From the IMG/VR virus record IMGVR_UViG_2778261087_000003: a stretch of DNA of 64,000 nt. The stretch is one strand, 5' to 3'. The translations under genes and the position numbers were made by a program. Origin of the DNA: a virus (taxonomy: Duplodnaviria > Heunggongvirae > Uroviricota > Caudoviricetes). Of the stretch, positions 33,678 to 64,000 are shown piece after piece (the stretch's first letter is position 1; each line of letters opens with the position of its first letter). The notes under the pieces are model-generated. The model made no database searches, was not told where the DNA came from, and worked only from the letters and a program-made list of their open reading frames with translations.

Positions 33678-33752
<75 letters not shown>

Positions 33753-45013: not shown

Positions 45014-45453
45014 TTGGCTGGGGTGTATGCGTTCTTGCGTTAGCCTTAGCCGATCGCTATTTGCTAAAACGCAAGGACATCACGCATTTAGAACTTGGTG
45101 ATGTGGAAATTAAACCGGGTTTCATCCGGGTGCCGTTCAAATACCGGTCTAAATTCCCGTTTTTGCGCGGCGCAACGGTCAGATATTGGATCCGCGATGT
45201 TCAGAAGCCGACGACAGTGATTGAAGGCGAACAACGTTGTCTGACGTCGGCTGAACAGGGCGAAAACAGTGAATGGTTGTACATACCCACTGAATATATG
45301 GGTAAAGGAGAGCGACTGTGGCATTTCAACGTCATGGTTACGCATGGCGACTCGTTCATTAACCCGTTGTATCGGATTTTCCCTGTTACTCAGCAAATCC
45401 GCAGAAGTTACGTAATAAATCTCGCACAGGATGTGTCAGATGACGAAAAATAA
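45010..45453 (+). CDS. Antiholin-like protein (P1 LydB position)
   Basis: 147 aa, start-coupled to holin. Confidence 0.4.
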   Translation: MIGWGVCVLALALADRYLLKRKDITHLELGDVEIKPGFIRVPFKYRSKFPFLRGATVRYWIRDVQKPTTVIEGEQRCLTSAEQGENSEWLYIPTEYMGKGERLWHFNVMVTHGDSFINPLYRIFPVTQQIRRSYVINLAQDVSDDEK

Positions 45454-46042
45454 GTATGCAACGGTCGATTTTGACCAGGTTAATGAAAAGGGGCTGAAAC
45501 CCCTTATCGCGGCGATCAATAAAACCGGGGTTACGGTAATTGAGGTTGACTCCAGCAACCGCGCAACAACGAAAGATGGCGTTAAAGTTAAAACCGCAAA
45601 GCTGGTTCTTAACGACGGACAAATTCTTGCCATACAGGTAAACGATACTGGCGATATATCGTCTGTGAAACTGAATGGAAAAGCTATTCCTAACGCTCAG
45701 TCGCCGGATATCAAGACGCTTGGTACCGTTATGGGACAGGCGGCCCGCAAAAACTCCGCAAAATTCCAGAAATCACTGATCGCCAAAGCGAAGCGTGTTG
45801 CCAATCCGGTAGACAAGAAACCGGCAGTTAAATCCAACTTTCAGCGCCTGCAAGAAGCAAAACAGCGGAATGCTCAGGTGGTTGCCGCTTATAAGTCCGC
45901 GCAGAATTCGGTGTCTTTCAATCAACAGCAGATCACTGATTTGCGGGCGAAGCTGGATAAGGAGACGGGCCGACTCAATAACGAAAAGGCACGGAATGGC
46001 GAACTCAAACGTCGTCTTAAGCAACTGAAAGCAGGAAATTAA
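45431..46042 (+). CDS. hdf: Hdf-like protein (homolog of the DarA N-terminal region)
   Basis: 203 aa; shares ...KNSAKFQ... and LNDGQILAIQV / LSDGQTISILF segments with the following 639-aa protein. Confidence 0.6.
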   Translation: MCQMTKNKYATVDFDQVNEKGLKPLIAAINKTGVTVIEVDSSNRATTKDGVKVKTAKLVLNDGQILAIQVNDTGDISSVKLNGKAIPNAQSPDIKTLGTVMGQAARKNSAKFQKSLIAKAKRVANPVDKKPAVKSNFQRLQEAKQRNAQVVAAYKSAQNSVSFNQQQITDLRAKLDKETGRLNNEKARNGELKRRLKQLKAGN

Positions 46043-46043
46043 C

Positions 46044-47963
46044 ATGGAACAGTTCAATATCAATAAAGGGGTGACGATCAAGCCTGGGCTTGACGTGCTT
46101 CCCCCGCCAGTGACTGATGATGAATATCGCGCATTAATGGCCGGTGAGGACCGCTATCTGATGACGGAATCCAACACCCTGGAGGAAATCGAGGCTACGT
46201 TCTTCTATGACACGCCGATCCACTGGTGTGCTACGGATTTACTGGAGGCGATTAGTTCTACTCGTTTGCAGTTACACCGGACCATGCAGGCATTTGTCCG
46301 GGCATTGAACCAGAAGCTGAATGGTACCGGAATCTCTGCGGGGAGTGATAAAACGGGGGATGTGGCCCAGAGCGGCGCGCGCGCGATCGGCGGCGCTGAA
46401 ATTGGCCGGGCACGTAACGTTAACGGGCTGCCGGTCTTGCCAGCCATTATTCCGCTCAGTGATGGTCAGACTATCAGCATTCTGTTTCATAGCCCGACAG
46501 CGGAAAACCGGATCACCAATAGCGATACGCTGGTTGCTTTCCAGTTCTTACTGAATAAAAAAGACGTTACTCACACCGTTGCTCCGATGAGTGGACGTGA
46601 TATGACGCTGGCGCAGGTCACCATGAAACTTGCCAACCTTGCAGAGAAAAACTCGGCAAAATTCCAGCGTGCGCAGAAGAAGAAAAAAACCCTTGTTGAT
46701 GAAATAACCCAACTACAGGCTGACAGTGACCAGAAAGAGGATGCCATGAGCGACCTCGCGGATCAGGTGGCAGCGGTAGAAGGGCAGAAGGCAGATCTGG
46801 AGCAGAAAATTAACGCTGTTGCATCGGAAGCGGATTCTCTTTATGAAGAGAATGAGCGTTTGCAGACGGAGATTGATCAGCTCAATCGCACTGGTGGGCG
46901 CGATACCATTGCTCCAGCGGGGATGACTGGTGGGCACTCTCGCGCGCTGACGGATCGCCTTGCCAGTATCAAAAATCGTATGCATATGAACGGGGAAGTG
47001 ACGCTCAGTAATGGAGCATCAATGAAGCAATTCATTGAGGACGGCGAAGGGTATATCCAGTTAACCGATCCGGATGGCAGCGTATACATGATCAAGGCTA
47101 AATCCATACAGGGTGTGGACATGGCAGATGCGATCGGCAAGCTGTTTAAAGCCTATAAAGCGGGTAATGTATCGGAATACCTGGTCCAACCAGAAGAACA
47201 TAAACCGGAAAACGTCGAACCTGAACAAGCGGAGGATACCGGTAGCTCTTCGCCTGAACCAGAAGTCTCTGTAGGTGCATATCGATATGCCCTGCAAATG
47301 CGTCCGGCGGCCCCTGGCGCAATACCTGAAGGTAACAAAGCAATTCTGCCGCGCCCTGATGAAGGTGACCCGTATTATGAATATGCACGCTACGGCATTG
47401 CTACTTTCGATACCCCGCTTTCTGATCAGCAAATGAGTGAGTACGACCTGAAGTTATTGCCTCGCGAGGATTCTTTCGACTTCCTGGCGAAGACACTTAC
47501 TAATGGTCCGTTTGGCAAATATGCACAAAAAGCTCTGGAGCTGGCCACCAGCTCACCAGACGAGTTCCGCGTAATGCTGAAAACTCAGTTTCAAAAAACT
47601 TTCCCCAATATTGCGTTTCCTGGGGGCGCTGGCACCGAGAAAATGGTGCAGAGCATGATCAATGCATTGCAGGCCGAAGTCGGTGAGATTACTCAGCCAG
47701 AACCGGCCCCGGCACAGCCTGATGAAACGGTTAGCGAAGCAGATGCAGAGGCTAATAAAGCCATTGAATATCTCAATAACGTGATGGATATGAAAAGCAC
47801 TGACATGGCGGAGATCCGTAACGCCCGGGGCAATGTCCGGGAAGCGATTGCAGCCCTTCAGGCTGCCGGACGTTTTGAGGAAAACGAAGAGCTGGTTAAC
47901 GGCGCAGCTCGCCACCTAGCTGATCTGTTGGTAGCAATCCAGAAAGCGGGGGTAGCGGCATGA
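46044..47963 (+). CDS. darA: DarA-like antirestriction/capsid-associated protein
   Basis: 639 aa; paralogy to upstream hdf-like gene; central coiled coil; followed by ddrA/ddrB-sized genes. Confidence 0.6.
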   Translation: MEQFNINKGVTIKPGLDVLPPPVTDDEYRALMAGEDRYLMTESNTLEEIEATFFYDTPIHWCATDLLEAISSTRLQLHRTMQAFVRALNQKLNGTGISAGSDKTGDVAQSGARAIGGAEIGRARNVNGLPVLPAIIPLSDGQTISILFHSPTAENRITNSDTLVAFQFLLNKKDVTHTVAPMSGRDMTLAQVTMKLANLAEKNSAKFQRAQKKKKTLVDEITQLQADSDQKEDAMSDLADQVAAVEGQKADLEQKINAVASEADSLYEENERLQTEIDQLNRTGGRDTIAPAGMTGGHSRALTDRLASIKNRMHMNGEVTLSNGASMKQFIEDGEGYIQLTDPDGSVYMIKAKSIQGVDMADAIGKLFKAYKAGNVSEYLVQPEEHKPENVEPEQAEDTGSSSPEPEVSVGAYRYALQMRPAAPGAIPEGNKAILPRPDEGDPYYEYARYGIATFDTPLSDQQMSEYDLKLLPREDSFDFLAKTLTNGPFGKYAQKALELATSSPDEFRVMLKTQFQKTFPNIAFPGGAGTEKMVQSMINALQAEVGEITQPEPAPAQPDETVSEADAEANKAIEYLNNVMDMKSTDMAEIRNARGNVREAIAALQAAGRFEENEELVNGAARHLADLLVAIQKAGVAA

Positions 47964-48325
47964 CACTATCAGCTATTGAGTTAATGGATCTCAGCGATAA
48001 GTTGGATGCTCTGATGTCCAAAGCGGCGACCGCGAGTGGCATGGAGTTGCTGGATATCAGCGATGAAATTGACCAGATCATGCAACAGATGGGGTACGGC
48101 GCGTCCGGCGGTGGTAGTGGCGAGGAAAAACAACCTTCGGAACATGATGGTGTGCCAAAACTGGTTGCTGATTTCCTGGCTGATAAATTCGTCGATCAGA
48201 GCACCGATGCATTTATCGGTACCTTGCAGGATTTGAGTCAATATGTTGGCACATACATCGACCTGGACCAGGTTAAACAGCACACGGCGGCATGGATAGC
48301 CGCCAACATTAAAGAGGCAGCATAA
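47960..48325 (+). CDS. ddrA: DdrA-like small protein
   Basis: 121 aa acidic protein start-coupled to darA-like gene. Confidence 0.45.
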   Translation: MTLSAIELMDLSDKLDALMSKAATASGMELLDISDEIDQIMQQMGYGASGGGSGEEKQPSEHDGVPKLVADFLADKFVDQSTDAFIGTLQDLSQYVGTYIDLDQVKQHTAAWIAANIKEAA

Positions 48326-48337
48326 GGCGTAACAGGG

Positions 48338-51325
48338 ATGAGCTTAAGCGATCAGGTGGTAATGGCCACCAGCATAGAAACGCTGATCGAGCTGCTAAAG
48401 AACCTGCCCGATTATGGGCGGGTTTCGTATGTGGTGACAGCGAAGGGAGACGAGGTAAAAACAGCGTTTGATATCGTCGATGCCTCAGTTCTTTTGGTAT
48501 CCAATACTCTGGATGGGAAAATTAATCCAGACTATCCCCAGGAACTTCAGCCGCGCGACCGGACCCGCGCATCCAGCCTTCTTCAGGTCAACCAGATATC
48601 CAAGGATTTGCGTCCTGCCCAGCTTACCGATTCCGGTTTATCCAGCCATGGCGCGCCAATAATTGGTGAGGACAATGCCGTTGAGTCAGGTAATGGGCGG
48701 ACCATGGGGATCATTAAAGCCTATCAGGACGGTAATGCGGATCGGTATCGGGAGTACCTGATTGAACATGCGACCGAATTCGGCATACGGCCTGAAAAGG
48801 TTGAATCAATGACGGCTCCGGTACTGGTGCGCCGCCGGTTAACGAAGGTTGACCGTGTTCAGTTTGCCAAGGACTCAAATATTTCTGATCTCCAGGAAAT
48901 GGCAGCCAGTGAAAAGGCTTTTGTTGATGCCGACAGCATAACACCGGCGATGATGGCGTTGTTTAACCCGTCAGAAAGTGGAGATCTGCTTAGCCGCAGT
49001 AATGACGCGTTTATTCGCGGATTCATGACGCAAGTTGGTGCCACACAGGCTGCTGGCCTTGTAACGGAAGATGGGCGACCAACACGGCAACTTGTAGACC
49101 GTATACAAAACGCGATCTTTGCCAAGGCATATAAGGATGCGCGCCTGGTAAGGATGGTTGCAGAAGAACCTGATCCGGATATGCGTAATGTTCTGACGGC
49201 GCTTAATGCGGCAGCCAATGATTTTGTCCAGATGCAGGCTTTATCAGGAGAAGCGCACAAGCAGGCTGTGACAACTATTGTTGATGGCATTGAGACAGCG
49301 GATAGCCTCGATAAAAAGGCGCTGGCGGCATTGAAAGATGCGGTAGACCTGGTAAGGCAATCGAAGGAGTCAGGCCAGCATATTACCGATGTTATTGCTC
49401 AGGGGGATATGTTCAGCGAAACGGCCCCGGAAGTGAAAGCACTCGCGTTGTTCATCGTCGCGAATAACCGTAGTGCGAAGCGTATGGCCACCGCCTTTAA
49501 GTTGATGGCGCAACGTATCAATGATGAGTTACAGCACCAGGGCCAGGCGCTCGGGGATATGTTTGGCGGCGGCGATGTGTCGTTACAGGATATCCTTCGC
49601 CAAGTATCTCAGGAACTGGAAAACGAAGGTATGCAAGGGATATCTGGCGGTCTTTTCGAGTCAGCTTCTGGCGGTAGTTACAACGGTGTTGCTCCATATA
49701 CCAGCTTGCTATTACATCGGGCATCCGGCATCAAAGACATTATTCATCTGATCAGGCTGCTTTCCCGTACAGATCCCCAGGATGAACAGCTTGTTCAAGT
49801 GCTTGCGCATTTTGTTCGAATGCCTGTTGCCGACGTGAAAAAATGGTGCCGATTATTCGGTATCAGCAATTCGTTACTTCGCGGCTTGTTAAATCACGCA
49901 TCCTCCCTTGGGCGCGATGGCTTTGACGAGATAGCGCAGGCGATAAAAAACGGAGATATGCCACCAGCTATTGACTGGTTTTCCATTCGCCCAACCAGGG
50001 TGAAAGCATTCCTTAGCGCGGCGCAATCAGCATCACCATTGGCAGAAATGGTTCAGAGGTTATCGCTCATATTCACAGACCATACCGCGTTGGGAGATCT
50101 GACTCTGGACGAGATGAAGGAAGCCTCCATTCAGTGGGCCGATCAACAAAATGAGGTTAACTCAGACTTCTTGCCAGCATTCAGGAAGGCCGTTAGTAAA
50201 GCTGATGATGCCCGTGGAATTCTGAAGGCATTTAAGGCATTGCAAAGTCGGGTTAATAAACATGTCGGTGATATCGATGGGGTAACGGCGGAAGGCAGGG
50301 ATATCCTTAAAGAGCACGGCATAACGCCAGAGTTTATTGATGAGATCAGGACTGATATGCAGCGTGAGGTCGTATCGTCCCTGCAAATCGTAGCCAGAGC
50401 GTTGGCGGATGCTAATCCGAAGAGTGCGGCCATTGTTAACCGTGTTATTGGTGATATTGAAGCATCGGAGGGCATGGGGGCGCTGAAACTCTTCCTTTCG
50501 CGAGCGTTTAATCCTAACGGCAATATTCTCCCCGGCATTATTGGTGAGGCTAAAAAGTATGTCAGCGAAGAAGAACTTGAGCATCTTGACCAACTACTTA
50601 AGCGATTCTCATATAACCCGCAGACACGCTGGCAAATGAATCAGCGAAGTATGGGTTCGGTCTATGAGAAAGTGTTATCTGCCATGAATAGTGCGATAGC
50701 CAACTCATCCGTATCTGAAGAAAAAGCTCTTGAGTGGGCCGACTCTTTTATCACGGAAGAAGTGGAAGAAGCCCGCGCTGGACAGAGTGGTGGGATAGAC
50801 CTGCGCAAGGAACTTGCTGATATTTATCGCCTGACCGGCGGTAAAATTTCGACCTTATCAAAGGTGGTTCACCACCAGGGAAGGGCATATGCAAATCTTA
50901 ATGGTGTTGTTGCTGTCAATTTGAACGATGAAAATGCAAGTGCACTGTGGCACGAGCTGGGCCATCATCTTGAGTACAGTAATCCTGGTTTGTTAGAGAA
51001 AGCCCGGTCATTCCTGAAGGCCAATGTTGAAGGGGATAAGCCATCTTTCGTTAATATCGGTGGGCGTGGCAAGCCTGAATGGTGCTTCAGATCCCGATTG
51101 AGTAATATTTATATGGCGAAGGTATACCCGCCAGCCTCAGTAAGTAACACCGGGAAAATTCGGCAGAAATCACCGACTATTTCCAAAACGTCAGCAACGG
51201 AAGTATTCTCTATGGCTCTTCAGTTGTATCATGACAAAGAGGCCGCTGCCGCATCACTGATGAATGGTGACGGATTGCTGGAACTGTTATTAGGTGTGGC
51301 AAAGGAGCTAAATAATGCAGATTAA
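48338..51325 (+). CDS. ddrB: DdrB-like large protein
   Basis: 995 aa, operon position after ddrA-like gene. Confidence 0.5.
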   Translation: MSLSDQVVMATSIETLIELLKNLPDYGRVSYVVTAKGDEVKTAFDIVDASVLLVSNTLDGKINPDYPQELQPRDRTRASSLLQVNQISKDLRPAQLTDSGLSSHGAPIIGEDNAVESGNGRTMGIIKAYQDGNADRYREYLIEHATEFGIRPEKVESMTAPVLVRRRLTKVDRVQFAKDSNISDLQEMAASEKAFVDADSITPAMMALFNPSESGDLLSRSNDAFIRGFMTQVGATQAAGLVTEDGRPTRQLVDRIQNAIFAKAYKDARLVRMVAEEPDPDMRNVLTALNAAANDFVQMQALSGEAHKQAVTTIVDGIETADSLDKKALAALKDAVDLVRQSKESGQHITDVIAQGDMFSETAPEVKALALFIVANNRSAKRMATAFKLMAQRINDELQHQGQALGDMFGGGDVSLQDILRQVSQELENEGMQGISGGLFESASGGSYNGVAPYTSLLLHRASGIKDIIHLIRLLSRTDPQDEQLVQVLAHFVRMPVADVKKWCRLFGISNSLLRGLLNHASSLGRDGFDEIAQAIKNGDMPPAIDWFSIRPTRVKAFLSAAQSASPLAEMVQRLSLIFTDHTALGDLTLDEMKEASIQWADQQNEVNSDFLPAFRKAVSKADDARGILKAFKALQSRVNKHVGDIDGVTAEGRDILKEHGITPEFIDEIRTDMQREVVSSLQIVARALADANPKSAAIVNRVIGDIEASEGMGALKLFLSRAFNPNGNILPGIIGEAKKYVSEEELEHLDQLLKRFSYNPQTRWQMNQRSMGSVYEKVLSAMNSAIANSSVSEEKALEWADSFITEEVEEARAGQSGGIDLRKELADIYRLTGGKISTLSKVVHHQGRAYANLNGVVAVNLNDENASALWHELGHHLEYSNPGLLEKARSFLKANVEGDKPSFVNIGGRGKPEWCFRSRLSNIYMAKVYPPASVSNTGKIRQKSPTISKTSATEVFSMALQLYHDKEAAAASLMNGDGLLELLLGVAKELNNAD

Positions 51326-51626: not shown

Positions 51627-51628
51627 AG

Positions 51629-51654
51629 AAATCCCGCCAATTGGCGGGATTTTT
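51629..51654. terminator. Bidirectional rho-independent terminator
   Basis: AAATCCCGCC-AATT-GGCGGGATTT perfect hairpin then TT, between convergent genes. Confidence 0.6.
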
Positions 51655-51657
51655 ACC

Positions 51658-52752
51658 TCACGAGAAACTCTTTTCTGATGTCAGCCAACAGTGCTCGTGC
51701 ATATCTCTTGGTGGTTTTTCGACAAATGCCTCTTCAGCAATATCCCGCCAGGGGATTTGTTTAGCCCATTCAGCTATAGCGTTATGGTTTGCCGAGAATA
51801 ACGGTATTGTATAGGCCTTCAGCCAGTCTAATGTGCTGGAGTTGTGTTTTTGAGCGTGATGTTTCGCATGGTGTTTGGCGATCACGATCGTAGGCACTAC
51901 CCATTTACTACCGTCAGTCATTGTGAAGTGCATATTACGGGGAACAGATGACTTTTCCATCAACTCCCGAATCCCGGGAAATTTCCCCAAGATCAATCGG
52001 CGATATTCATCGCTATTGCGCCCACCAAACTCTTTGGCTTTGAATTCAAGATATGCTTCAGAAACGAGAGGTGAATCCTCTGTGTTTAGAGTTATCGCCG
52101 TGAAAAAACCAGCAGGATTGTTTTTACTATGGGCCAACCGGTGATGCGAATCATAAAAGTACCCTTTCTCGCGTTCCGATGGTTTCGACAGCAACAGCAG
52201 GCGCGAGTCATAATTGGTTAAATTGCCTGTTATCACTGCATGAGCGCGATCGCTGATTTCCGCCGAGTTAATAACGATGAAAAGATCGTGCGGTCCAGTA
52301 AAACCAGCCAGAGATACTTCGTTATTCAGACAATAGGTTATATAGACGCATCCCCATGTTTCACTGGTATGCACCAACCCTTTGTCAGGGTGCATTCTGA
52401 AATGATTGCCAAGAAAAGGGTGTCTTTGGGTAACTCGCTCCCAATAACGGAACATATAGTCAATTATTGTTTTTCGACTATCGTTAATCGCAGGAGAAAC
52501 AACCACTGTACGGGAACACGAATACAGTATTGTTTGCAGGATGCTAATCACTGCCACAATAGAGGTTTCCCCAATACCATGTGGTGTGGTGGCAGTGACT
52601 TTGGCTCCGGTGTTCTTTATCGCGTTAATAATTTTTGCTTGATGAGGTGTTAACTCAATATCAAGCAACTCTTTCGCTGCCAGTTCCCAATTGTCTTTAT
52701 ACTGTTCTATCAGTGCTAACCAGGCAGGTTCATTCTGTATACGATTAGTCAC
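51658..52752 (-). CDS. Hypothetical protein (last gene of ssb-linked operon)
   Basis: 364 aa, no diagnostic motif recognised with confidence. Confidence 0.45.
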   Translation of the reverse strand: MTNRIQNEPAWLALIEQYKDNWELAAKELLDIELTPHQAKIINAIKNTGAKVTATTPHGIGETSIVAVISILQTILYSCSRTVVVSPAINDSRKTIIDYMFRYWERVTQRHPFLGNHFRMHPDKGLVHTSETWGCVYITYCLNNEVSLAGFTGPHDLFIVINSAEISDRAHAVITGNLTNYDSRLLLLSKPSEREKGYFYDSHHRLAHSKNNPAGFFTAITLNTEDSPLVSEAYLEFKAKEFGGRNSDEYRRLILGKFPGIRELMEKSSVPRNMHFTMTDGSKWVVPTIVIAKHHAKHHAQKHNSSTLDWLKAYTIPLFSANHNAIAEWAKQIPWRDIAEEAFVEKPPRDMHEHCWLTSEKSFS

Positions 52753-52848
52753 TTTCCACCTCTTCCGTGGTGTTTTCTTGCAGTTCTGTTAATGCAGCAC
52801 GACACAGGTTCCGGGCCTTGGCTATAGCCACACTTTTGACTTCATCCG

Positions 52849-53532
52849 TCATCGTGCAGGCAATGTACTGATCGAGTTCTTCAGCTCGGAGATGCTTTTG
52901 CCAATCAGAAACTGTATTTGCCAGAGCAGATCGGCATCCATAATCAGAATTTCTGCCGGGCCTTCAGGGCCAGCCGGGAAGGAAACATAAGCCTGTTTGC
53001 CCAAGCCGATAACTCGACAACTTGCTTCAAGAATTGCGCGCTTGAGGTCTGACTTTGTAACGGAAACAGGTTGGTTTTCACCAGTGATTACGCCGTTGAC
53101 ATGGAAGTGAAAGGGCATGTAGCTTGAAATTCGCTCTACTTTCCATACGCCAGCAAGCGATCCTTCATGCAGCACAATGGGGGTAACCGCGAGTTTCATC
53201 TCACCATATAACTGCTGGCAGAGAGCTGGATTGCTGAATACATCCAAAGGTTCACACTCAAACAGCGGTGCAATCTGCATGAGGTCCATCATGGTCATAC
53301 CTGGGGTACGAGCAGTAATGAATCTGCGCATTCCAGTATCCATTGTGCGCCAGATAGCTACACCATGCTTTTTGCTCACTTCTTCAGTAAAGCCAAGGTG
53401 GCACATGATGGTTTTTTCGATAGCCAGATCAGAGATAGAAACCTTTTCGCCTGGCACTCCATCATTATTGATGGTCACTTCGACACTCTGGCCATTACGC
53501 AGGCGGTATTGAATTGCTTTAGTATTTTCCAC
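52849..53532 (-). CDS. Hypothetical protein
   Basis: 227 aa ORF. Confidence 0.45.
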   Translation of the reverse strand: MENTKAIQYRLRNGQSVEVTINNDGVPGEKVSISDLAIEKTIMCHLGFTEEVSKKHGVAIWRTMDTGMRRFITARTPGMTMMDLMQIAPLFECEPLDVFSNPALCQQLYGEMKLAVTPIVLHEGSLAGVWKVERISSYMPFHFHVNGVITGENQPVSVTKSDLKRAILEASCRVIGLGKQAYVSFPAGPEGPAEILIMDADLLWQIQFLIGKSISELKNSISTLPAR

Positions 53533-53538
53533 GTTAAA

Positions 53539-54336
53539 TCACTCCACTACAAACCAGTCACATGCCAGTAAGTCGCCTACAGAAGGAACCCACGGAACAA
53601 CTACACCTTGTGCATTTTTTAAGGCGAAATAAGCACCATACGGAACGAGGTCGCCGGGGAAATATCCCTTAATGGCTTCCATTCGTGCCGGGTACTGTCC
53701 TTCAGGAACCAGCCAGCAGAATTGGTTTTCGCCGTTCCACCCGCGTCGAGCAACTTTCTTGCCATCCTTCAGCCACATCAGCGCGTCAGAAAAGTCGGCT
53801 GCTTCAAGGTCGATTTCTTCTTGTAGAGTAGCGATACCGCCAGCAGAAATAGTTACGTCCCTGGCTGTAATGAATGTCACCCCATTGTGACCTTCAATGC
53901 TGAGCAATGCCCCATTTTCGAAGAAGTCGTTAGTCCGACTAAAGCCTTCTTCAAATGTTTTTTCTGGTGAATAGGACAGAGATCCGTCCTCATAAGCGAC
54001 CAGATATCCGCCAATTTCTGGTCGGTGTTTTTGCAAAAACATTTTATCAACATGGACTTTTACCCCTTCTGGCTCAACGACTTCGATGTTGCAAAGAAGG
54101 ACCACATCCATTAGGGCGATAATTTCGATATCTTTGATTTTTGAGGCACGAACTGTTTTATGGCTTTTGTATTTTGGAAGTGCCGTCAAAAGCTCTTTCG
54201 TTGTCATATTATTCATAGTCTTTCCTCTGCTTAAAACCTGGTGTATTGCGCCTTCAGGTGGGTCAGGAATGTTTTCCCACCAGCGAAAGCAATATCTCGG
54301 GGTGTTCTTTTCGTGAAAAGCGCGTGCCATTGCCAA
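53539..54336 (-). CDS. Two-domain hypothetical protein with C-terminal DUF2829-like segment (start may be internal)
   Basis: C-terminal ...FSDALMWLKDGKKVARRGWNGENQFCWLVPEG... matches the GKKvxRxGWNG hallmark I associate with DUF2829. Confidence 0.45.
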   Translation of the reverse strand: MAMARAFHEKNTPRYCFRWWENIPDPPEGAIHQVLSRGKTMNNMTTKELLTALPKYKSHKTVRASKIKDIEIIALMDVVLLCNIEVVEPEGVKVHVDKMFLQKHRPEIGGYLVAYEDGSLSYSPEKTFEEGFSRTNDFFENGALLSIEGHNGVTFITARDVTISAGGIATLQEEIDLEAADFSDALMWLKDGKKVARRGWNGENQFCWLVPEGQYPARMEAIKGYFPGDLVPYGAYFALKNAQGVVVPWVPSVGDLLACDWFVVE

Positions 54337-54413
54337 CTTTGGCGTTTTTTAGCGAGTTCGTGCTTTTGTTGGCGTCTGGACCACCGCTTTTCTTTCAATC
54401 GTTTTTTACTCAT

Positions 54414-54902
54414 TCAAAACGGAATATCGTCGTCAAAGTCCATTGGAGGTTCGTTATTGGCGTTGCTCTGAGGTTTACCGCCACCACTGTATTGCTGGTG
54501 GTTTTGAGGTTGGTTTGATTGCCCCCAGCCGTTTGAGGGCTGTGAATCGTCACGACGAGTGCCGATCATTTGCATGGTGCCGCCCTGGCTGACGATAATT
54601 TCCGTCGTGTAACGTTCTACACCGGCGTCATCTGTCCACTTACGGGTTTTAAGTTTCCCTTCGATGTAGACCTGAGAACCTTTTCGTAAATACTCACTCG
54701 CAATTTCAGCAAGTTTTCCGAACAAAACGACTTTATGCCATTCTGTTTGCTCTTTCTGTTGGCCCGTTTGCTTGTCGCGCCATGATTCATTCGTTGCGAT
54801 GCTGAGTCTTCCGACCGCGCCGCCATTTGGTATATACCTGATCTCCGGGTCTTGCCCCAGGGTACCAATCAGGATGACTTTGTTTACACCGCGTTGTGCC
54901 AC
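54414..54902 (-). CDS. ssb: Single-stranded DNA-binding protein
   Basis: [44 protein letters not shown]... OB fold, Gly/Gln-rich linker, C-terminal DFDDDIPF tip. Confidence 0.9.
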
Positions 54903-55071
54903 TTATCTTACCTAATAAAATAAATTAATTAGAGCAATAATGTATATCTTTGAAACGTAGCTAACAAGTGATTTGCATTATCCTGTGTCTTCTAAAGGGA
55001 TCGAGTCAGTCGGTATTGGCTGTGAATGGGTGTTTGTCCTGGAGCGTAAAAAATTCGCTTATGAGGTCTTT

Positions 55072-55629
55072 ATGAAGGGAAAAACAGCCGCAGGAGGCGG
55101 TGCAATTTGCGCTATCGCGGTGATGATTACCATCGTGATGGGTAATGGCAATGTGCGAACCAACCAGGCGGGGCTTGAGCTTATCGGAAACGCTGAAGGT
55201 TGCCGACGTGATCCATACATGTGCCCGGCGGGTGTATGGACTGACGGGATTGGTAATACACACGGGGTAACGCCTGGCGTGCGAAAAACCGACCAGCAAA
55301 TCGCCGCTGATTGGGAAAAGAATATCCTGATCGCTGAACGCTGTATTAACCAGCACTTCCGGGGCAAAGACATGCCCGATAATGCCTTCAGCGCAATGAC
55401 AAGCGCGGCATTCAATATGGGATGCAATAGTTTACGGACCTACTACAGCAAAGCGCGAGGCATGCGAGTAGAAACGTCCATCCACAAGTGGGCGCAGAAA
55501 GGGGAATGGGTGAATATGTGTAACCATCTCCCTGATTTCGTGAACAGTAACGGCGTCCCCCTGCCCGGGTTAAAGATTCGCCGTGGAAAAGAACGCCAGC
55601 TTTGCCTGACGGGGCTTGTCAATGAATAA
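55072..55629 (+). CDS. lyz: SAR endolysin (T4-lysozyme fold)
   Basis: 185 aa; N-terminal MKGKTAAGGGAICAIAVMITIVMG signal-anchor-release segment; catalytic region NAEGCRRDPYMCPAGVWTDGIGNTHG. Confidence 0.85.
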   Translation: MKGKTAAGGGAICAIAVMITIVMGNGNVRTNQAGLELIGNAEGCRRDPYMCPAGVWTDGIGNTHGVTPGVRKTDQQIAADWEKNILIAERCINQHFRGKDMPDNAFSAMTSAAFNMGCNSLRTYYSKARGMRVETSIHKWAQKGEWVNMCNHLPDFVNSNGVPLPGLKIRRGKERQLCLTGLVNE

Positions 55630-55876
55630 ACTCCGGCAGCTCCGCCGACTTTCGACAATGAAGTTATCGCTGGCGGCGATAGTTTTTGACTCGATTTTCA
55701 TGGCGGTATATGTGCTCAATGAGACGTGGCCACTGGAACCGCTATTGTATGCCGGGCTTCGGCTGTGCCTGACATTTTTGAGCATGGCTGCGAGATTGAT
55801 GCAGCAGAAAGAAACTGCTTCAGATTGTCCACGCCGCGCGGTGCGCAAATATATGGCACGCAGGCGAAGGAGATAA
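55616..55876 (+). CDS. Hypothetical small membrane protein
   Basis: 86 aa with hydrophobic segments, overlaps lysozyme stop. Confidence 0.3.
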   Translation: MSMNKLRQLRRLSTMKLSLAAIVFDSIFMAVYVLNETWPLEPLLYAGLRLCLTFLSMAARLMQQKETASDCPRRAVRKYMARRRRR

Positions 55877-55920
55877 TAGTTAACGAGAACCCCGGCAGCC
55901 GCCGGGGTTATTTTTGGTGG

Positions 55921-58651
<2,731 letters not shown>

Positions 58652-58717
58652 TTAATTAGAATAATTCGCATCGTGTTTTAACGGAATTTAACACTAGTCA
58701 CTTGTTAAGGATTACCA

Positions 58718-61700
58718 ATGAACAAGCTATCTATGGGGGTGTTTCGCTGTTCAAGTGTCAGCGAAATATTGAAATACATTAGGGCAATAACATCTCACCG
58801 AGCGCCGATTAAATACGGCGTGGAAAAGGTGGAAGGCAAAAGCTATGACCGACTGCGCCGGGAGGCGAATCAGAAGGCGATAGATTTGCTTAATTCGCTG
58901 GTGGACGGCGCGACACTGACAGATGAACAGCGCCAGATCCTGGCTGGGTACACCGGTGAAGGCGGCATTGGCGGGTCCGTCTCCGAATATTACACACCAA
59001 AGCCGATCGCTGAAGGTGTCTGGGAGATCATGAAGCTCTACGGCGCGGACGTAGGTAACACTCTGGAACCATCGGCGGGCACCGGCGTTTTTAATGAGAC
59101 AAAACCGGTTGGTACGGTGATGACCGCGACTGAGATCAGCAGTGTTTCCGGTCGTATAAACCAGCTGTTACATCCGGAAGACAGCGTACAGATTTCCCCG
59201 TTCGAACAACTGGCTGTAAGCACGCCTAACGATTCATTCGACCATGTTGTGGGTAACGTTCCGTTCGGCGGTCGTGATAACACACGCAACATCGATAAGC
59301 CTTACGCAGAAGAAACGGACATGGGTTCTTACTTCATGCTCCGCATGCTGGACAAGATAAAGCCAGGCGGATTCATGTGCGTGATTGTGCCGCCGTCCAT
59401 TGTTTCAGGTTCAAACATGAAGCGGTTACGCCTGCGCCTATCACGGAAAGCTGAATTTCTTGGTGCCCACCGCTTGCCTACCGGTACTTTTGATGCTAAC
59501 GGGACCAGTACGGTCGTAGATGTGGTGCTGATGCGCAAACATCCGGCAGAGATGGCTGAGAAAATCCCCCTGGTGGATGAAGGCACTCTTGAATCGGCAA
59601 ATGTGCTTTGGCCAACGTTTATTTCTGGCAAGTGGTTCGAAAAGGATGGCCGCCGGTTTGTTCATGGCACCCAGGAGAAGGGATTCCAGGGGCGTATTGA
59701 GGTTCGTGCCGACGGGCAGATTGATAACCAGGCTCTTAAAGCGAAGCTGATTCATCGTTTCGAAAGCCGTATCGACTGGTCTTTGCTTGATATGGCTGAA
59801 CCGTCACCGACCGCAGACGTTGTTGATGAAGGGGAAATGCGCCTGATTAATGGCGTATGGCAAAAATATGCTGGTGGTCGCTGGATTGAAGCTGATTCTG
59901 GTAAGGAGCTTAAGATTGATGCTGCCAGTTATGGCGCGGATAGCTGGGAGGCTCTTCAGCGTAACCTGACTACCACTGAAGGCCGTCTCGGCATGACATT
60001 TACCCAGATGGCAAATGTCCGCGATAAGTACACCACATCAATCAGCGACGATATGGTGCAGCTGGTGGACTGGATTAACAGCCAGCCTGAAAAATACCGT
60101 GAACGCTTGTATCGCGGGGCGATGATTGGCCGGATGTTAATTGAATATCAGGACATGAAGGCCGCCGGGCATAGTGCTGAACAAATCGAACAGCAGCGCC
60201 TTTCTCTGGTATCCCGTTTGCAAGCAGAGATTGACCGTTTTGGTAACCCCGGTCGCGGTCCGATAGCGAAATTATCGGGAAGCGGTGCGCGCGCCTGGTT
60301 TGCTTTCCGTGGTGCAATTAAGCTGGATGGCACTATTTCTGACGAGCTGACAGGAAAGCTGGTTACGCATGATTCCAGCGCCAGTTATGACTCCACCAGC
60401 TATCAGGACACCCTGCGTTATCTCTATAGCGATCTTACCCGCGATCCAATCCAGCTCGATGATTTCCGCCTTGCGTTTACCGGCGGACTGCCAGCCAGTG
60501 ATGAAGAGTTGCTTAATTTATTGGCCAGCACCCCTGGTATTGCGGTTTCACCGTATGGCGGGATTGTTCCGTTCGCCCGCGCCACCAGCGGCGACATTAA
60601 CGAGATAGTGGCTCCAAAACAGGAATTCCTTTCCACACTCCCCGACGGTCCAGTAAAGAACAACGTCCTTAATCAGTTGGCAGCGATCGAAGAGAAGCGC
60701 ATCAAGACGCCAGCAGAGAATATCCGCTTTAAGCTCAATAGCCGTTGGTTCGACCGTTCCGTCATTCTGGAGTTTTTGCAGGAAAACGGCTATCCGGATC
60801 TGCGCTATGTGCAGTCAGTGCAGCTGGAAGGCGACGAAATGGTTTCTGACACCTATCACGGTGGTGATGGTCTGTTCGTCGGGCACCGATACGGTGTCGT
60901 CCAGCGCAAGGATAAAGAAACAGGTGAGATCCGCTACGAGTGGGACCGTAAATCAGGTGAAAACGCGACCGGGTTCCCGGCACAGCTGGAAAAGTATCTC
61001 AATGGTGCGCGTATCGGTGGCAAAGATAGCGCGACGGCGAACGGCTATCGTGAGCAGATGGCACTGCTTGAGGACCAGTTCAATAAGTGGATCAAGACGC
61101 ACGATCGCTACGATGAGCTGGTTGCCAAATACAACGATGTTTTCAATAGCAATATTCCGTATGAACACTCTGGTGATCCGCTTGGGTTGAAGGGATTAAG
61201 CGGTAAGCGTCAGCCATTTGATTACCAGAATAGCGAGGTGCGCCGACTGTCCGAAGATGGGCGCGGCATCCTGGGCTTCGGCACCGGGCTGGGTAAAACC
61301 ACGACCGCGCTGGCACTTGAGGCGTTCAACTATGAGAACGGTCGCTCCACCCGTACTGCGTATGTAGTGCCTAAATCAGTGCTGGAAAACTGGTATTACG
61401 AAGCAAAAGAATTCCTGAGTGAAGAGGCATTCAGTAACTACCTGTTCGTCGGTCTTGATGTGCTGATGGATGGCGATCAGATTCGCCAGGTGCCGGTGCT
61501 CGATGAGAACGGTAAACCTGTTCTTGGTGCTGATGGCACTCCAGTTATGCGCGATGCTCTTAAGCTGGCAGATGAAGCCACTATCACGGCGCGGATGAAT
61601 GCGATCCCGCACTCAAATTACCGTGCAGTCGTGTTTACCAAAGAACAATACGCCCGCATTCCGCTACGTGATGACACCGTAGATGAGCATGCACAAGACA

Positions 61701-64000
61701 TGCTTTATGACTTCGTTGCTGCCGGACGTGTGGCCAGCGCAATGGATTCCGATTCCCATCGCAAAGAGGCGGCGCGTCGCCGGGTATTGTCGGAGTATTC
61801 AGATACCGGTACCGAAAAAGCAGAGAAGTATCCGTACTTTGAGGATATGGGCTTCGACAGCGTGATCGCCGACGAAGGCCACAACTACCGCAATAGCTAT
61901 AAAAATGGTCGCGAAGCGTCACAACTGGCCTATCTGCCCACCAGCGCGGTGGCGCAATCGGCGCGGGATATGGCAATTAAAAACGCGTACCTGATGAAAA
62001 AGAATGGCGGGCGCGGACCGGTTCTCCTGACTGCAACGCCAGTCGTTAACACCCCGATCGATGCATACAACATGCTTTCTCATGTTCTGCCGAAGGAATA
62101 CTGGCAGAAGATGGGGATCTACGGTCCTGATGACTTCGTTAAATTCTTCGGCAAGACCAGGCTGGAAACGGTACAGAAAATCAGCGGTGAAGTTGAAGAA
62201 AAAATGGCGCTGGTGGGCTTTGAAAACCTTGATGCGCTGCGCGGCATATTCCATCGCTGGACAACGCTTAAAACGGCGGAAGACGTTAAGGATACCGTGG
62301 AGATCCCGGAACTGGACGAACACCAGCAGGATGCACCACTTACTGAAGAACAACTGGCGGCGTATGAAGAATTACGTCAGCAGGCGGAAGCGGCAGCAAA
62401 AGCCAACAATGGCGTAACGACCTCGGTCAATGAAGACGGCGTGATTGAGCACGAGAAAGCCCGTCCGATCTTCTCAATAATCAGGGATATGGACCGCGTA
62501 TGTACTGACATGGACCTGTACTATCGCCGGATCACCTATCGTTTCCTGCCGGAGTACGCCGATGCGGTGCAGCAGCTGGCGGACAGTTTGCCTAAACAAG
62601 CCACCAGCGAAGACGACGACAGTGATGATTCAATCACGCAGCAATCGCAATACTCCCTGATAGATAAGGGCGAGTTTATTCAGTTGCAGGTTCCGGAAGC
62701 GTTCGAGCAGGAAGTGAATAAGCGCCTGGCCAGGTTTGGCATTGACGAACAGACCGTAACTCACCCCGTTACACCCAAATACGCGAAGCTGATCGCCACG
62801 CTGAAGGAGTTTTTCCCGGAAGGTAAGCAAATCATCTTCACGGACGAAAAAACGCAGCACCAGAAGCTCAAGCGCATTATCTGCAATGCTCTTAACCTTG
62901 AACCTTCAAAGGTGGGGATCCTGAATGCTCAGACGGTTGCCGAGGCAGGTAAAACCGGTAAGAAACTGAAAGCGGTTAAACCGCCGAAAGAGTTACCGGA
63001 TGAACCAACAGATGCACAGATAGCGAAATACAACGAGCAAATGGCTCTGTATGACGCCTATATCGCGCAGCAAAATGAAATGTCGTTGGGCGGTCTGGAA
63101 AAGATTGCAGCCGACTTCCAGGAGGGCCGGACTCCGATCATCATCTGCAACAAAAAGGCAGAGGTGGGTATCAACCTGCATCGAGGAACGACTGACATCC
63201 ATCATCTGACGTTGCCGTGGACTCCAGCCAGTATCGCACAACGTAACGGTCGCGGTGCCCGAGTTGGCTCCAACCGTGCAAGCGTTCGCGTTCACTACTA
63301 CTGCGGCAAGGGTTCTTTCGATGAATACCGACTGAAGACGCTGAAGCGTAAAGCAGGCTGGATCTCCGATATCCTCCGTTCAGATAAGTCAGAAATGGAG
63401 AACGCCGACGCCAACGATATGATCGAAATGCAGATGTATACCGCTAAGGATGATGGCGAACGTCTGGCAATGATGCAGGTTCAAATGGATAAGGCGAAAG
63501 CCGCGCAACGCGCTCGCCAGAAAGAACAGGCTACTATCGACCTTCAGAACTACATCAAGGCGCAGCACGCAGCTGGCGAGGATGTGGAGGTACTTACCGC
63601 TGAATTAGAGCGAAGCAAAGCGGAACTTGAAAAGACCACCGCCGAGGTAGCTAAATTCAAACAGGCGGTAATGGCCAAAGCAGCTGATAACGCAGACTGG
63701 AAAGCCCGCTGGGGTAGCGTCCATCACACAGACCGTACGTTGTTAGCACAGTATCGCGCGTCGTTGAAAAGCGCCATTCAGCGCAAGGCTAATATCTCTC
63801 AAGCCATCTCCCGCTATGAGAAATTATTGAACCGTACTCAGAAGGCCGCGACGGATATCAAACGCCTGCGCCCGCTGGTGGAGGATGCAATAAATAAAGG
63901 CATTCTGGATGTTGATCCTGACCTGGTTAACCATGCGAGTGAGTTCCTTGTTATCGGCGATCGCTCATGGCGTGTAGGCCAATACTACGATTGTGCCGGT
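58718..64000 (+). CDS. darB: Giant methyltransferase-helicase, DarB-like, 5' 1761 codons only (runs off the right edge)
   Basis: AAGGA RBS; SAM motif LEPSAGTGVF then DHVVGNVPFGG (NPPF-like); helicase motifs GFGTGLGKTTTALA, ADEGHNY, LTATPVVN, QRNGRGARVG; same frame checked at 59240, 61280 and 63962. Confidence 0.75.
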   Translation, partial: MNKLSMGVFRCSSVSEILKYIRAITSHRAPIKYGVEKVEGKSYDRLRREANQKAIDLLNSLVDGATLTDEQRQILAGYTGEGGIGGSVSEYYTPKPIAEGVWEIMKLYGADVGNTLEPSAGTGVFNETKPVGTVMTATEISSVSGRINQLLHPEDSVQISPFEQLAVSTPNDSFDHVVGNVPFGGRDNTRNIDKPYAEETDMGSYFMLRMLDKIKPGGFMCVIVPPSIVSGSNMKRLRLRLSRKAEFLGAHRLPTGTFDANGTSTVVDVVLMRKHPAEMAEKIPLVDEGTLESANVLWPTFISGKWFEKDGRRFVHGTQEKGFQGRIEVRADGQIDNQALKAKLIHRFESRIDWSLLDMAEPSPTADVVDEGEMRLINGVWQKYAGGRWIEADSGKELKIDAASYGADSWEALQRNLTTTEGRLGMTFTQMANVRDKYTTSISDDMVQLVDWINSQPEKYRERLYRGAMIGRMLIEYQDMKAAGHSAEQIEQQRLSLVSRLQAEIDRFGNPGRGPIAKLSGSGARAWFAFRGAIKLDGTISDELTGKLVTHDSSASYDSTSYQDTLRYLYSDLTRDPIQLDDFRLAFTGGLPASDEELLNLLASTPGIAVSPYGGIVPFARATSGDINEIVAPKQEFLSTLPDGPVKNNVLNQLAAIEEKRIKTPAENIRFKLNSRWFDRSVILEFLQENGYPDLRYVQSVQLEGDEMVSDTYHGGDGLFVGHRYGVVQRKDKETGEIRYEWDRKSGENATGFPAQLEKYLNGARIGGKDSATANGYREQMALLEDQFNKWIKTHDRYDELVAKYNDVFNSNIPYEHSGDPLGLKGLSGKRQPFDYQNSEVRRLSEDGRGILGFGTGLGKTTTALALEAFNYENGRSTRTAYVVPKSVLENWYYEAKEFLSEEAFSNYLFVGLDVLMDGDQIRQVPVLDENGKPVLGADGTPVMRDALKLADEATITARMNAIPHSNYRAVVFTKEQYARIPLRDDTVDEHAQDMLYDFVAAGRVASAMDSDSHRKEAARRRVLSEYSDTGTEKAEKYPYFEDMGFDSVIADEGHNYRNSYKNGREASQLAYLPTSAVAQSARDMAIKNAYLMKKNGGRGPVLLTATPVVNTPIDAYNMLSHVLPKEYWQKMGIYGPDDFVKFFGKTRLETVQKISGEVEEKMALVGFENLDALRGIFHRWTTLKTAEDVKDTVEIPELDEHQQDAPLTEEQLAAYEELRQQAEAAAKANNGVTTSVNEDGVIEHEKARPIFSIIRDMDRVCTDMDLYYRRITYRFLPEYADAVQQLADSLPKQATSEDDDSDDSITQQSQYSLIDKGEFIQLQVPEAFEQEVNKRLARFGIDEQTVTHPVTPKYAKLIATLKEFFPEGKQIIFTDEKTQHQKLKRIICNALNLEPSKVGILNAQTVAEAGKTGKKLKAVKPPKELPDEPTDAQIAKYNEQMALYDAYIAQQNEMSLGGLEKIAADFQEGRTPIIICNKKAEVGINLHRGTTDIHHLTLPWTPASIAQRNGRGARVGSNRASVRVHYYCGKGSFDEYRLKTLKRKAGWISDILRSDKSEMENADANDMIEMQMYTAKDDGERLAMMQVQMDKAKAAQRARQKEQATIDLQNYIKAQHAAGEDVEVLTAELERSKAELEKTTAEVAKFKQAVMAKAADNADWKARWGSVHHTDRTLLAQYRASLKSAIQRKANISQAISRYEKLLNRTQKAATDIKRLRPLVEDAINKGILDVDPDLVNHASEFLVIGDRSWRVGQYYDCAG

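What the first reader, a model, noticed from the sequence alone, without database searches (positions are those of the whole stretch)
58718..64000. Giant methyltransferase-helicase fusion gene running off the window
At least 1761 codons are open. An N-terminal N6-adenine methyltransferase-like domain is followed after about 800 residues by a superfamily-2 helicase core (Walker A GLGKT, DEGH box, TAT, QRNGRGAR). This matches DarB-type proteins that modify phage DNA during injection.
Basis: partly seen in the sequence, partly recalled or inferred. Interest (0 to 1): 0.45.

Follow-up and report, generated by a model that had tools for sequence, protein, structure and literature searches.

The report
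Phage P1 darB anti-restriction gene
This is the first 78% of darB, the well-known giant anti-restriction gene of phage P1, in a P1-like prophage; it is ordinary and already described, although how DarB protects phage DNA is still unsolved.

Summary
Window 58718-64000 (+) is one open frame of 1761 codons with no stop, and the other five frames hold 34-149 stops. All quoted motifs are present.

The gene is darB of a P1-like (Punavirus) phage-plasmid:
- The DNA is 98.3% identical to phage P1.
- The protein is 1747/1761 identical, without gaps, to residues 1-1761 of P1 DarB (2255 aa). About 494 codons lie beyond the window.
- dN/dS against P1 is 0.05.
- The published 30-residue capsid-targeting sequence is identical to P1.
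- Synteny is as in P1: divergent portal gene prt, and intact hdf-darA-ddrA-ddrB.

Pfam finds an N6-adenine methyltransferase (aa 90-290) and an SNF2-type helicase. Their catalytic motifs are conserved in DarB-type proteins of Xanthomonas, Bordetella, Thermus and Leptospira phages.

Published work shows that DarB is a head protein (~40 copies) and that darB deletion makes P1 sensitive to EcoK/EcoB type I restriction. The papers read here report, citing Iida 1987, co-ejection with the DNA and protection only in cis. "Methylation during injection" is only a hypothesis.

Verdict: already known, low interest.

In passing: a Mu-like phage is inserted in the essential tape-measure gene sit of this P1-like element at 33752/33753, so this prophage is probably defective.

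The parts
58718..64000 (+). darB coding sequence, codons 1-1761 of an expected ~2255; it runs off the window
   Evidence: No stops. 1747/1761 aa identical to P1 DarB AAQ13985. 98.3% nt identity to P1. dN/dS 0.049.
58718..58807 (+). N-terminal 30 residues, the published DarB capsid-targeting sequence
   Evidence: Residues 1-60 are identical to P1. [quoted passage not shown]
58973..59587 (+). Gamma-class N6-adenine DNA methyltransferase domain (aa 86-290): motif X YYTP (aa 91-94), motif I EPSAGTG at 59066-59086, motif IV NVPF at 59255-59266
   Evidence: Pfam N6_Mtase and Eco57I. The best PDB sequence hits are type I HsdM subunits, including EcoKI M. The motifs are invariant in distant homologues.
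59588..61207 (+). Middle region (aa 291-830) with no assigned domain; mostly helical in a low-confidence model
   Evidence: No Pfam or PDB sequence match, even with a 7-sequence profile. It diverges fastest among homologues, 12-38% identity. The AF2 single-sequence model is unusable, pLDDT 35.5.
61208..62062 (+). SNF2-type helicase lobe 1 (aa 831-1115): Walker A GTGLGKT at 61280-61300, motif Ia VVPKSVLENW, DEGH at 61871-61882, motif III TAT at 62030-62038
   Evidence: Pfam SNF2-rel_dom and ResIII. The motifs are conserved in 8 full-length DarB-type proteins.
62063..63067 (+). Insert between the helicase lobes (aa 1116-1450)
   Evidence: It lies between Pfam SNF2-rel_dom and Helicase_C. Iyer et al. 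describe multihelical inserts typical of SWI2/SNF2 ATPases.
63068..63397 (+). Helicase lobe 2 (aa 1451-1560): motif V EVGINL, motif VI QRNGRGAR at 63239-63262
   Evidence: Pfam Helicase_C. This is the most conserved segment across homologues, 22-72% identity.
63398..64000 (+). Start of the C-terminal region (aa 1561-1761), unassigned; the rest is off the window
   Evidence: 99% identical to P1 but only 9-23% identical in distant homologues.
58632..58662 (+). Predicted sigma-70 promoter PdarB (-35 TTGTCT at 58632-58637, -10 TAGAAT at 58657-58662), as annotated in P1
   Evidence: P1 annotation. The hexamers are unchanged in the alignment with P1. The promoter itself is only predicted.
58685..58703 (-). 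Late promoter LPpro for the divergent prt-pro operon, as annotated in P1
   Evidence: P1 annotation. The sequence is identical to P1.
56933..58642 (-). prt, the portal protein gene, divergent neighbour of darB
   Evidence: 569/569 aa aligned, 99.3% identical to P1 Prt.
45431..51325 (+). Genes of the darA operon encoding the other Dar proteins: hdf 45431-46039, darA 46044-47960, ddrA 47960-48322, ddrB 48338-51325
   Evidence: All are full length with no gaps and 98.1-98.5% identical to P1. Packaging of DarB depends on them (PMC9024508; PMC12810830).

Best explanation
Window 58718-64000 is the 5' 78% of darB ('defence against restriction B') of a P1-like phage-plasmid.

What the literature reports for P1 DarB:
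- Virion proteomics finds it in the head. [quoted passage not shown]
- Its first 30 residues act as a capsid-targeting signal.
- Deleting darB makes P1 sensitive to EcoK and EcoB, which I know as family IA type I systems.
[quoted passage not shown] One 2022 paper words the translocation more cautiously, as 'believed'.

What is shown here: this copy is 99% identical to P1 DarB. It has intact catalytic motifs of a gamma-class N6-adenine methyltransferase and of an SNF2-type ATPase, and it is under strong purifying selection.

Inferred mechanism, which I commit to at about 45%: once in the cell, DarB molecules bound to the entering DNA use the SNF2 motor to track along the duplex. The attached methyltransferase uses SAM to methylate adenines, so that type IA enzymes treat the DNA as modified or hemimethylated. 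The main alternative for the protective step is the first rival below.

In this particular element the gene is probably stranded, because the essential tape-measure gene sit is interrupted by a Mu-like prophage.
For: Identity:
- 98.3% nt identity to P1 and 18 other P1-like phages over 6 kb.
- 1747/1761 aa identical and gap-free to P1 DarB.
- PHROG 1685 matches end to end, plus a 'DarB-like antirestriction' PHROG.
- P1 synteny is kept: prt, pro, lyz, ssb, and hdf-darA-ddrA-ddrB all intact.
- The regulatory boxes are unchanged.

Selection: 80 synonymous against 14 non-synonymous differences from P1, dN/dS 0.049, and low in most segments.

Enzymology:
- Pfam N6_Mtase, Eco57I, SNF2-rel, ResIII and Helicase_C.
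- The nearest solved sequences are EcoKI-type HsdM and SNF2/Rad54.
- MTase motifs X, I and IV and helicase motifs I, Ia, II, III, V and VI are conserved in full-length DarB-type proteins at 9-58% segment identity, from Escherichia D6 and from Xanthomonas, Bordetella, Thermus and Leptospira phages. The two enzymatic modules are the best-conserved segments.
- The darB-ulx gene pair is kept in D6 and in a Thermus phage. Cronobacter phage JK004 has an unnamed 441-nt gene, the same length as P1 ulx, in that position.

Literature:
- Head protein, ~40 copies, N-terminal targeting signal (PMC9024508).
- Co-ejection and EcoK/EcoB specificity (PMC12810830).
- Cis-only action (PMC12707154; PMC5512222).
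- The methylase-translocase model (PMC5512222).
- darB is non-essential for plaque formation (PMC10695390).
Against: - None of the papers found and read here reports DNA methylation by DarB. The mechanism is called undefined.
- By my own knowledge of the recognition sequences, EcoKI and EcoBI recognise unrelated sites. EcoA-family restriction is not covered by DarB. That is hard to explain by sequence-specific methylation.
- Wholesale non-specific methylation by ~40 molecules on ~94 kb seems slow (my inference).
- No target-recognition domain could be recognised in aa 291-830.
- The last ~494 codons and ulx are outside the window, so the intactness of this copy is unproven. Frameshift-truncated darB alleles are common in public assemblies.
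- sit is interrupted here, so this copy may never be delivered by a virion.
Confidence: 0.9

Rival explanations
1. The gene and its delivery are the same, but methyl transfer is not the protective step. DarB stays on the injected DNA and uses its SNF2 motor to block, stall or strip translocating type IA restriction complexes. Its HsdM-like domain may instead dock on them. The methyltransferase fold would serve as a SAM-dependent DNA clamp or base-flipping anchor.
For: - Protection is specific to one type I family (EcoK/EcoB, not EcoA), although their target sequences are unrelated (the recognition sequences are my own knowledge). This fits recognition of the enzyme rather than of sites.
- The MTase domain is most similar to EcoKI HsdM.
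- Cis-only action fits a DNA-bound factor present in few copies.
- No target-recognition domain was detectable.
Against: The SAM-binding and catalytic residues (LEPSxGxGxF, the acidic residue after motif I, N-[P/V]-P-[F/Y]) are invariant down to ~27% identity in phages of unrelated hosts. That conservation is best explained by real catalysis. No binding or displacement data appear in the papers found here.
Confidence: 0.35
2. In this particular element darB is a remnant. Either it is truncated or frameshifted in the unseen 3' part, or it is intact but useless because the P1-like prophage can no longer build virions.
For: - A Mu-like prophage ends at 33752 and interrupts sit 261 nt into the gene.
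- sit is essential in P1, EOP <2.9E-5 (PMC10695390).
- Many public P1-like assemblies carry frameshift-truncated darB, for example DarB 1-676 plus an out-of-frame tail on 84 contigs.
- 494 codons cannot be seen.
Against: - The 1761 visible codons are intact. The window reads through every truncation point seen elsewhere.
- The 94 differences from P1 are 85% synonymous.
- The other Dar proteins and the head genes in the window are intact.
- The insertion could be recent, so the gene itself is not decayed.
Confidence: 0.2
3. It is not an anti-restriction gene. It is a host-defence methyltransferase-helicase of the restriction-modification type: DISARM DrmD/DrmMI-like, type I/III-like or Dnd/Dpd-associated.
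For: NCBIfam gives partial hits of the helicase C-lobe to DISARM DrmD, DpdE, a PLD anti-phage protein and a Dnd restriction enzyme. The MTase resembles HsdM.
Against: - All these hits are far below the curated cut-offs (44 bits against 610, 29.5 against 500, and so on) and cover only generic SF2 motifs.
- No nuclease, HsdS or other partner gene is adjacent. The neighbours are the phage portal and head genes.
- The protein is 99% identical to a virion protein whose deletion makes P1 sensitive to restriction.
Confidence: 0.01

Closest known systems
Phage P1 DarB (AAQ13985 / YP_006479, 2255 aa) and its P7, RCS47, SJ46 and other Punavirus orthologues
   Same: 99% aa identity over residues 1-1761 with no gaps. 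The start codon, the N-terminal capsid-targeting sequence, the MTase and SNF2 motifs, the divergent prt neighbour and the darA operon are all the same.
   Different: 14 amino-acid substitutions, 9 of them in the unassigned 291-830 region. The last 494 residues are unseen. The host element carries a Mu-like insertion in sit.
DarB of Escherichia phage D6 and Cronobacter phage JK004 (P1-like phage-plasmids)
   Same: Same length class (2278 and 2224 aa), same domain order and same motifs. D6 has an annotated ulx-like gene downstream. JK004 has an unnamed 441-nt gene, the same length as P1 ulx, in that position.
   Different: D6 is only 23-72% identical by segment. JK004 is 76-100% identical except for a different N-terminus.
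MTase-SNF2 'dyad' of polyvalent proteins (Iyer et al. 2017), e.g. Bcep22 gp75, Agrobacterium phage Atu_ph08 gp21, Klebsiella phage LASTA PLxRFG protein; also stand-alone DarB-type proteins of Xanthomonas Rb1, Bordetella PHB04, Thermus Lalka27a and Leptospira LE1
   Same: The LPD36-type GxGG element, an EcoKI/TaqI-like adenine MTase with the same motifs, and an SNF2-type ATPase. All are phage-encoded and presumed to be injected with the DNA.
   Different: 25-46% identity in the MTase only. Many are 4000-5500 aa with extra effector domains such as transglycosylase (my arithmetic from the CDS spans). None has been shown experimentally to act like P1 DarB.
Type I restriction-modification methyltransferase HsdM (EcoKI M, PDB 2AR0/2Y7C) and type III Res/Mod
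   Same: The MTase fold family and motifs. A methylase is coupled to an SF2 translocase on DNA.
   Different: The match is weak (E about 1e-4, 90-170 residues). There is no HsdS/HsdR or nuclease. It is a single polypeptide delivered by a virion, and its role is counter-defence rather than defence.
Other phage anti-type-I strategies: T7 Ocr, lambda Ral, T4 IPI*, plasmid ArdA/ArdB
   Same: The biological outcome is escape from restriction at entry. By my own knowledge, Ral is also specific to family IA.
   Different: Those are small proteins that bind or modulate the restriction enzyme in trans (PMC5512222; PMC11109961). DarB is a 250-kDa two-enzyme protein that acts in cis on the co-injected DNA.

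Membership tests
Phage P1 DarB (Punavirus defence-against-restriction protein B) | Collinear, high-identity match to P1 DarB | tested here: met
   1747/1761 identical, 0 gaps, residues 1-1761. 98.3% nt identity. PHROG 1685 positions 1-1757 of 2278 matched.
Phage P1 DarB (Punavirus defence-against-restriction protein B) | N-terminal capsid-targeting sequence (first 30 residues) | tested here: met
   Residues 1-60 are identical to P1. The function of these residues was shown in P1 (PMC9024508), not in this element.
Phage P1 DarB (Punavirus defence-against-restriction protein B) | Gamma-class N6-adenine MTase module with motifs X (YTP), I (EPSxGxG) and IV (N-x-P-F/Y) | tested here: met
   Pfam N6_Mtase and Eco57I. 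Motif positions. Conservation across homologues.
Phage P1 DarB (Punavirus defence-against-restriction protein B) | SNF2-type SF2 ATPase with motifs I, Ia, II, III, V and VI, C-terminal to the MTase in the same polypeptide | tested here: met
   Pfam SNF2-rel_dom, ResIII and Helicase_C. No stop between the modules. Motif alignment.
Phage P1 DarB (Punavirus defence-against-restriction protein B) | Full length of ~2255 aa with an intact C-terminal ~494 residues | not testable with these tools
   The window ends at codon 1761. No public record spanning this exact element was found.
Phage P1 DarB (Punavirus defence-against-restriction protein B) | P1 gene context: divergent from prt, and hdf-darA-ddrA-ddrB in the same genome | tested here: met
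   tblastn of P1 proteins finds all of them full length at 98-99% identity. The order is as in P1.
Phage P1 DarB (Punavirus defence-against-restriction protein B) | ulx immediately downstream (helps DarB incorporation) | not testable with these tools
   It would lie about 1.5 kb beyond the window end.
Phage P1 DarB (Punavirus defence-against-restriction protein B) | Packaged in the virion, co-ejected, and protecting in cis against EcoK/EcoB | not testable with these tools
   Reported only for P1 itself. In this element sit is interrupted, so delivery is doubtful.
DISARM DrmD / DpdE / Dnd-type defence helicases | Score above the NCBIfam curated cut-off for the equivalog model | tested here: not met
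   44.1 bits against a 610 cut-off (DrmD), 29.5 against 500 (DpdE), 29.2 against 600 (Dnd restriction). Only the helicase lobes align.
Type I restriction-modification HsdM | HsdM-length protein with adjacent hsdS/hsdR partners | tested here: not met
   Only 90-170 residues align, at E 1e-4. The neighbours are phage portal and head genes.

The most novel reading that the evidence does not exclude
DarB may not protect by methylating DNA at all. It could be a DNA-tracking SNF2 motor whose HsdM-like module recognises and disables family-IA type I complexes on the DNA it rode in with. That would explain the family specificity despite unrelated target sites. This concerns P1 DarB in general, and the window copy adds no special leverage.

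A second, much less likely novelty (about 3%) is that the unseen 3' 494 codons carry a different C-terminal module from P1.
Probability: 0.3. Interest if true: 0.45.

Novelty: already known. Interest (0 to 1): 0.1.

Why it matters
For this window it matters little. The gene is a 99% copy of a protein named in 1987 and sequenced with the P1 genome, so the finding is best used as an annotation: darB, partial.

The general question behind it remains open after almost 40 years. How does a capsid-delivered methyltransferase-translocase shield DNA in cis from type I restriction systems with unrelated recognition sites? The strict conservation of both catalytic centres across very distant phages argues that both activities are used, and this is directly testable with point mutants in the phage.

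Locally, the Mu-like insertion in the tape-measure gene shows one mobile element inactivating another. It means this darB copy may no longer be deliverable.

Tried and rejected
1. Split-gene idea: rejected. There are no stops in 1761 codons.

2. Defence-system (DISARM/Dpd/Dnd/type I) membership: rejected. Scores are far below the cut-offs and the context is wrong.

3. Search for a target-recognition domain in aa 291-830:
- Neither the whole-protein Pfam scan nor a Pfam scan of seven homologues of this region places any family there.
- A 7-sequence profile against PDB sequences gave only chance-level hits, E 0.27.
- An AlphaFold2 single-sequence model of aa 1-830 had mean pLDDT 35.5 and is unusable, so no fold search was run.

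4. The homologue search with aa 291-830 returned only near-identical P1-type proteins, many truncated. It gave no depth for a better model.

5. Looking for the source record, and hence the missing 3' end, by searching the Mu-like/sit junction in complete E. coli genomes, PLSDB and INPHARED: no record spans it, best coverage 55%.

6. Piya et al. 2017 and Lobocka et al. 2004 could not be read because they are not held. Their content is cited only through papers that quote them.

7. One Pfam call failed on a wrong-frame reference, and one script failed on a file-format assumption. Both were repeated correctly.
Full report
**Observation.** Translating window 58718-64000 on the + strand gives 1761 codons without a stop. 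The other five frames of the same stretch contain 34 to 149 stops. An in-frame TAA sits at 58706, just upstream. The ATG at 58718 follows an AAGGA Shine-Dalgarno sequence at 58707-58711.

So are methyltransferase motif I (EPSAGTG, 117) and motif IV (NVPF, 180).

Pfam places N6_Mtase at 90-290, Eco57I methylase at 166-244, SNF2-rel_dom at 849-910, ResIII at 833-904 and Helicase_C at 1455-1517. All are above the curated thresholds.

**What it is.** The 6 kb around the start is 98.0-98.5% identical over its full length to 17 P1-like phage records, including P1, P7, RCS47 and SJ46. There the ORF is annotated darB and the divergent neighbour prt (portal).

At protein level the window ORF is 1747/1761 identical to residues 1-1761 of P1 DarB (AAQ13985, 2255 aa), with no gap. 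The window therefore holds 78% of the gene, and about 494 codons lie beyond it. PHROG 1685 is matched end to end, and a 'DarB-like antirestriction' PHROG is also hit.

Of the 94 nucleotide differences from P1, 80 are synonymous and 14 non-synonymous, giving dN/dS 0.049. The ratio is low in every segment except the last 201 codons. Those have only three differences.

The prt-darB intergenic region differs from P1 at 2 of 161 positions. The annotated PdarB hexamers and the LPpro late-promoter boxes are unchanged.

A blastn map of the whole window on P1 shows that 33753-64000 is collinear with P1 coordinates 44149 down to 11954. tblastn with P1 proteins finds prt, pro, lyz, ssb and the other Dar proteins hdf, darA, ddrA and ddrB. 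All are full length, gap-free and 98-99% identical.

**What is known about the protein.** These points come from the literature, not from this sequence.
- P1 DarB is a 250-kDa head protein detected by virion proteomics. [quoted passage not shown] Its first 30 residues suffice to send a reporter into the capsid (PMC9024508). Those residues are identical here.
- Dar proteins are reported to be co-ejected with the DNA. DarB, Ulx and DdrB are needed against EcoB and EcoK, while DarA is needed against EcoA and StySA (PMC12810830).
- Protection works only in cis (PMC12707154; PMC5512222).
- darB is dispensable for plaque formation on a permissive host (PMC10695390).
- The mechanism is explicitly called undefined (PMC11109961; PMC9009780).
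- PMC11109961 also shows that anti-restriction by plasmid-borne darB is a DNA artefact caused by Chi plus EcoKI sites, not by the protein. P1 darB carries 11 Chi sites, which I reproduce on the P1 sequence (6 + 5). The window part has 9, against 2.6 expected for the whole 64-kb window.

**How it most likely works.** I compared the window protein with DarB-type proteins from increasingly distant phages.
- In 11 MTase modules, down to 27% identity (Xanthomonas, Leptospira, Thermus, Bacteroides, Bacillus, Agrobacterium, Streptococcus, Klebsiella and Burkholderia phages), four elements are invariant or nearly so. These are the YTP/YTS element, LEPSxGxGxF, the acidic residue after motif I, and N-[P/V]-P-[F/Y].
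- The valine in P1's NVPF is shared by several homologues. By my own knowledge of ErmC'/KsgA-type NIPY/NLPY motifs, it is compatible with catalysis.
- In eight full-length proteins of 1971-2278 aa, helicase motifs I, Ia, II, III, V and VI are all kept. The MTase and the two helicase lobes are the best-conserved segments, while 291-830 and the C-terminal part diverge fastest.
- A ulx-like gene follows darB in D6 and in a Thermus phage. Cronobacter phage JK004 has an unnamed 441-nt gene, the same length as P1 ulx, in that position.

The nearest solved sequences are EcoKI-type HsdM and SNF2/Rad54. This pattern says that both enzymatic activities are used.

I therefore favour the model of Iyer et al., at about 45%. 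In it, an SNF2 motor carries an adenine methyltransferase along the DNA it was injected with.

The main rival, at about 35%, is motor-driven blocking or stripping of type IA complexes without a need for methyl transfer. It better explains why only the EcoK/EcoB family is countered despite unrelated target sites. It also fits my failure to find any target-recognition domain in 291-830. The single-sequence AlphaFold model was unusable, pLDDT 35.5.

Neither model can be decided by sequence alone. The decisive experiments are listed separately.

**Comparison and membership.** The ORF meets every testable defining feature of P1 DarB: collinear identity, the targeting signal, both enzyme modules in one polypeptide, and the P1 gene context. 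Three features cannot be tested here: full length, ulx downstream, and virion delivery with cis protection.

It is not a DISARM, Dpd or Dnd helicase. The NCBIfam scores are 29-44 bits against cut-offs of 500-610 or more. It is not a type I HsdM either.

**Novelty and score.** The gene is already known. It belongs to one of the most studied phages, and close copies occur in hundreds of plasmid records. 826 PLSDB records match the right-hand 24 kb of the window. Interest is 0.1.

**Context worth recording.** The left 33.7 kb of the window is not P1. It is a Mu-like (Bcepmuvirus-type) transposable phage, about 96% identical to Escherichia phage PhiKM.
- Homology to five independent copies of that phage ends exactly at 33752.
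- The sequence there ends in ...TCA, the terminal CA expected of Mu-type ends by my own knowledge. P1 sit sequence follows immediately, 261 nt into the gene.
- sit encodes the tape measure and is essential (PMC9024508; PMC10695390).
- No record in complete E. coli genomes, PLSDB or INPHARED spans this junction.

So this P1-like prophage is probably defective, and its intact-looking darB may be stranded.

Noticed in passing
window 1-33752, junction at 33752/33753: The left half of the window is a Mu-like (Bcepmuvirus-type) transposable phage, about 96% identical to Escherichia phage PhiKM. It is inserted 261 nt into the essential tape-measure gene sit of the P1-like element. Homology to five independent copies ends exactly at 33752, and the end reads ...AATCA. 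No record in complete E. coli genomes, PLSDB or INPHARED spans the junction. The other end and the expected 5-bp target duplication lie off the window.
   Followed up: partly
window 53539-54384 (-) and 52849-53532 (-): Where P1 has a single isaA gene (320 aa), this element has two ORFs. The first joins IsaA residues 1-65 to a Pfam Tad2-like (Thoeris anti-defense 2-like, formerly DUF2829) domain, E 2e-22. The second matches IsaA residues 57-272. IsaA residues 57-65 match in both ORFs, so P1 isaA looks like a deletion fusion.
   Followed up: partly
window 43976-63881: All 18 Chi sites (GCTGGTGG) of the window lie in the right-hand 20 kb of the P1-like part, and 9 of them are inside darB. None lies in the Mu-like phage. 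2.6 are expected by chance for the whole window. This matches the known Chi enrichment of P1 and the 11 Chi sites reported for full-length darB.
   Followed up: yes
proteins P0001-P0120 (not in the window): Public assemblies hold many frameshift-truncated DarB alleles. Examples are DarB 1-676 plus 7 out-of-frame residues seen on 84 contigs, and 18 clusters ending at residue 732. Some may be sequencing errors. The window reads through all of these points.
   Followed up: partly
window 41435-43629: The tail-fibre variable region and invertible C segment differ from P1. The constant part of S (aa 1-468), cin and R are conserved. The variable part and its chaperone genes have no blastn match to P1.
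   Followed up: no
window 51625-52743, ORF 51658-52752 (-): A 364-aa ORF with no Pfam match occupies the place of the IS1-isaB region of P1.
   Followed up: no
window 171-383 (-): The Mu-like phage's tail-fibre gene shares a stretch of 60-65% aa identity with the P1 tail-fibre protein S (residues 257-400). This fits the tail-fibre similarity between P1 and phage Mu that is annotated in the P1 record.
   Followed up: no
window 58718-64000 versus the rest: darB is 52.3% G+C, against 47.3% for the whole P1 genome and 48.8% for the rest of the P1-like part of the window. The Mu-like part is 54.8%.
   Followed up: no
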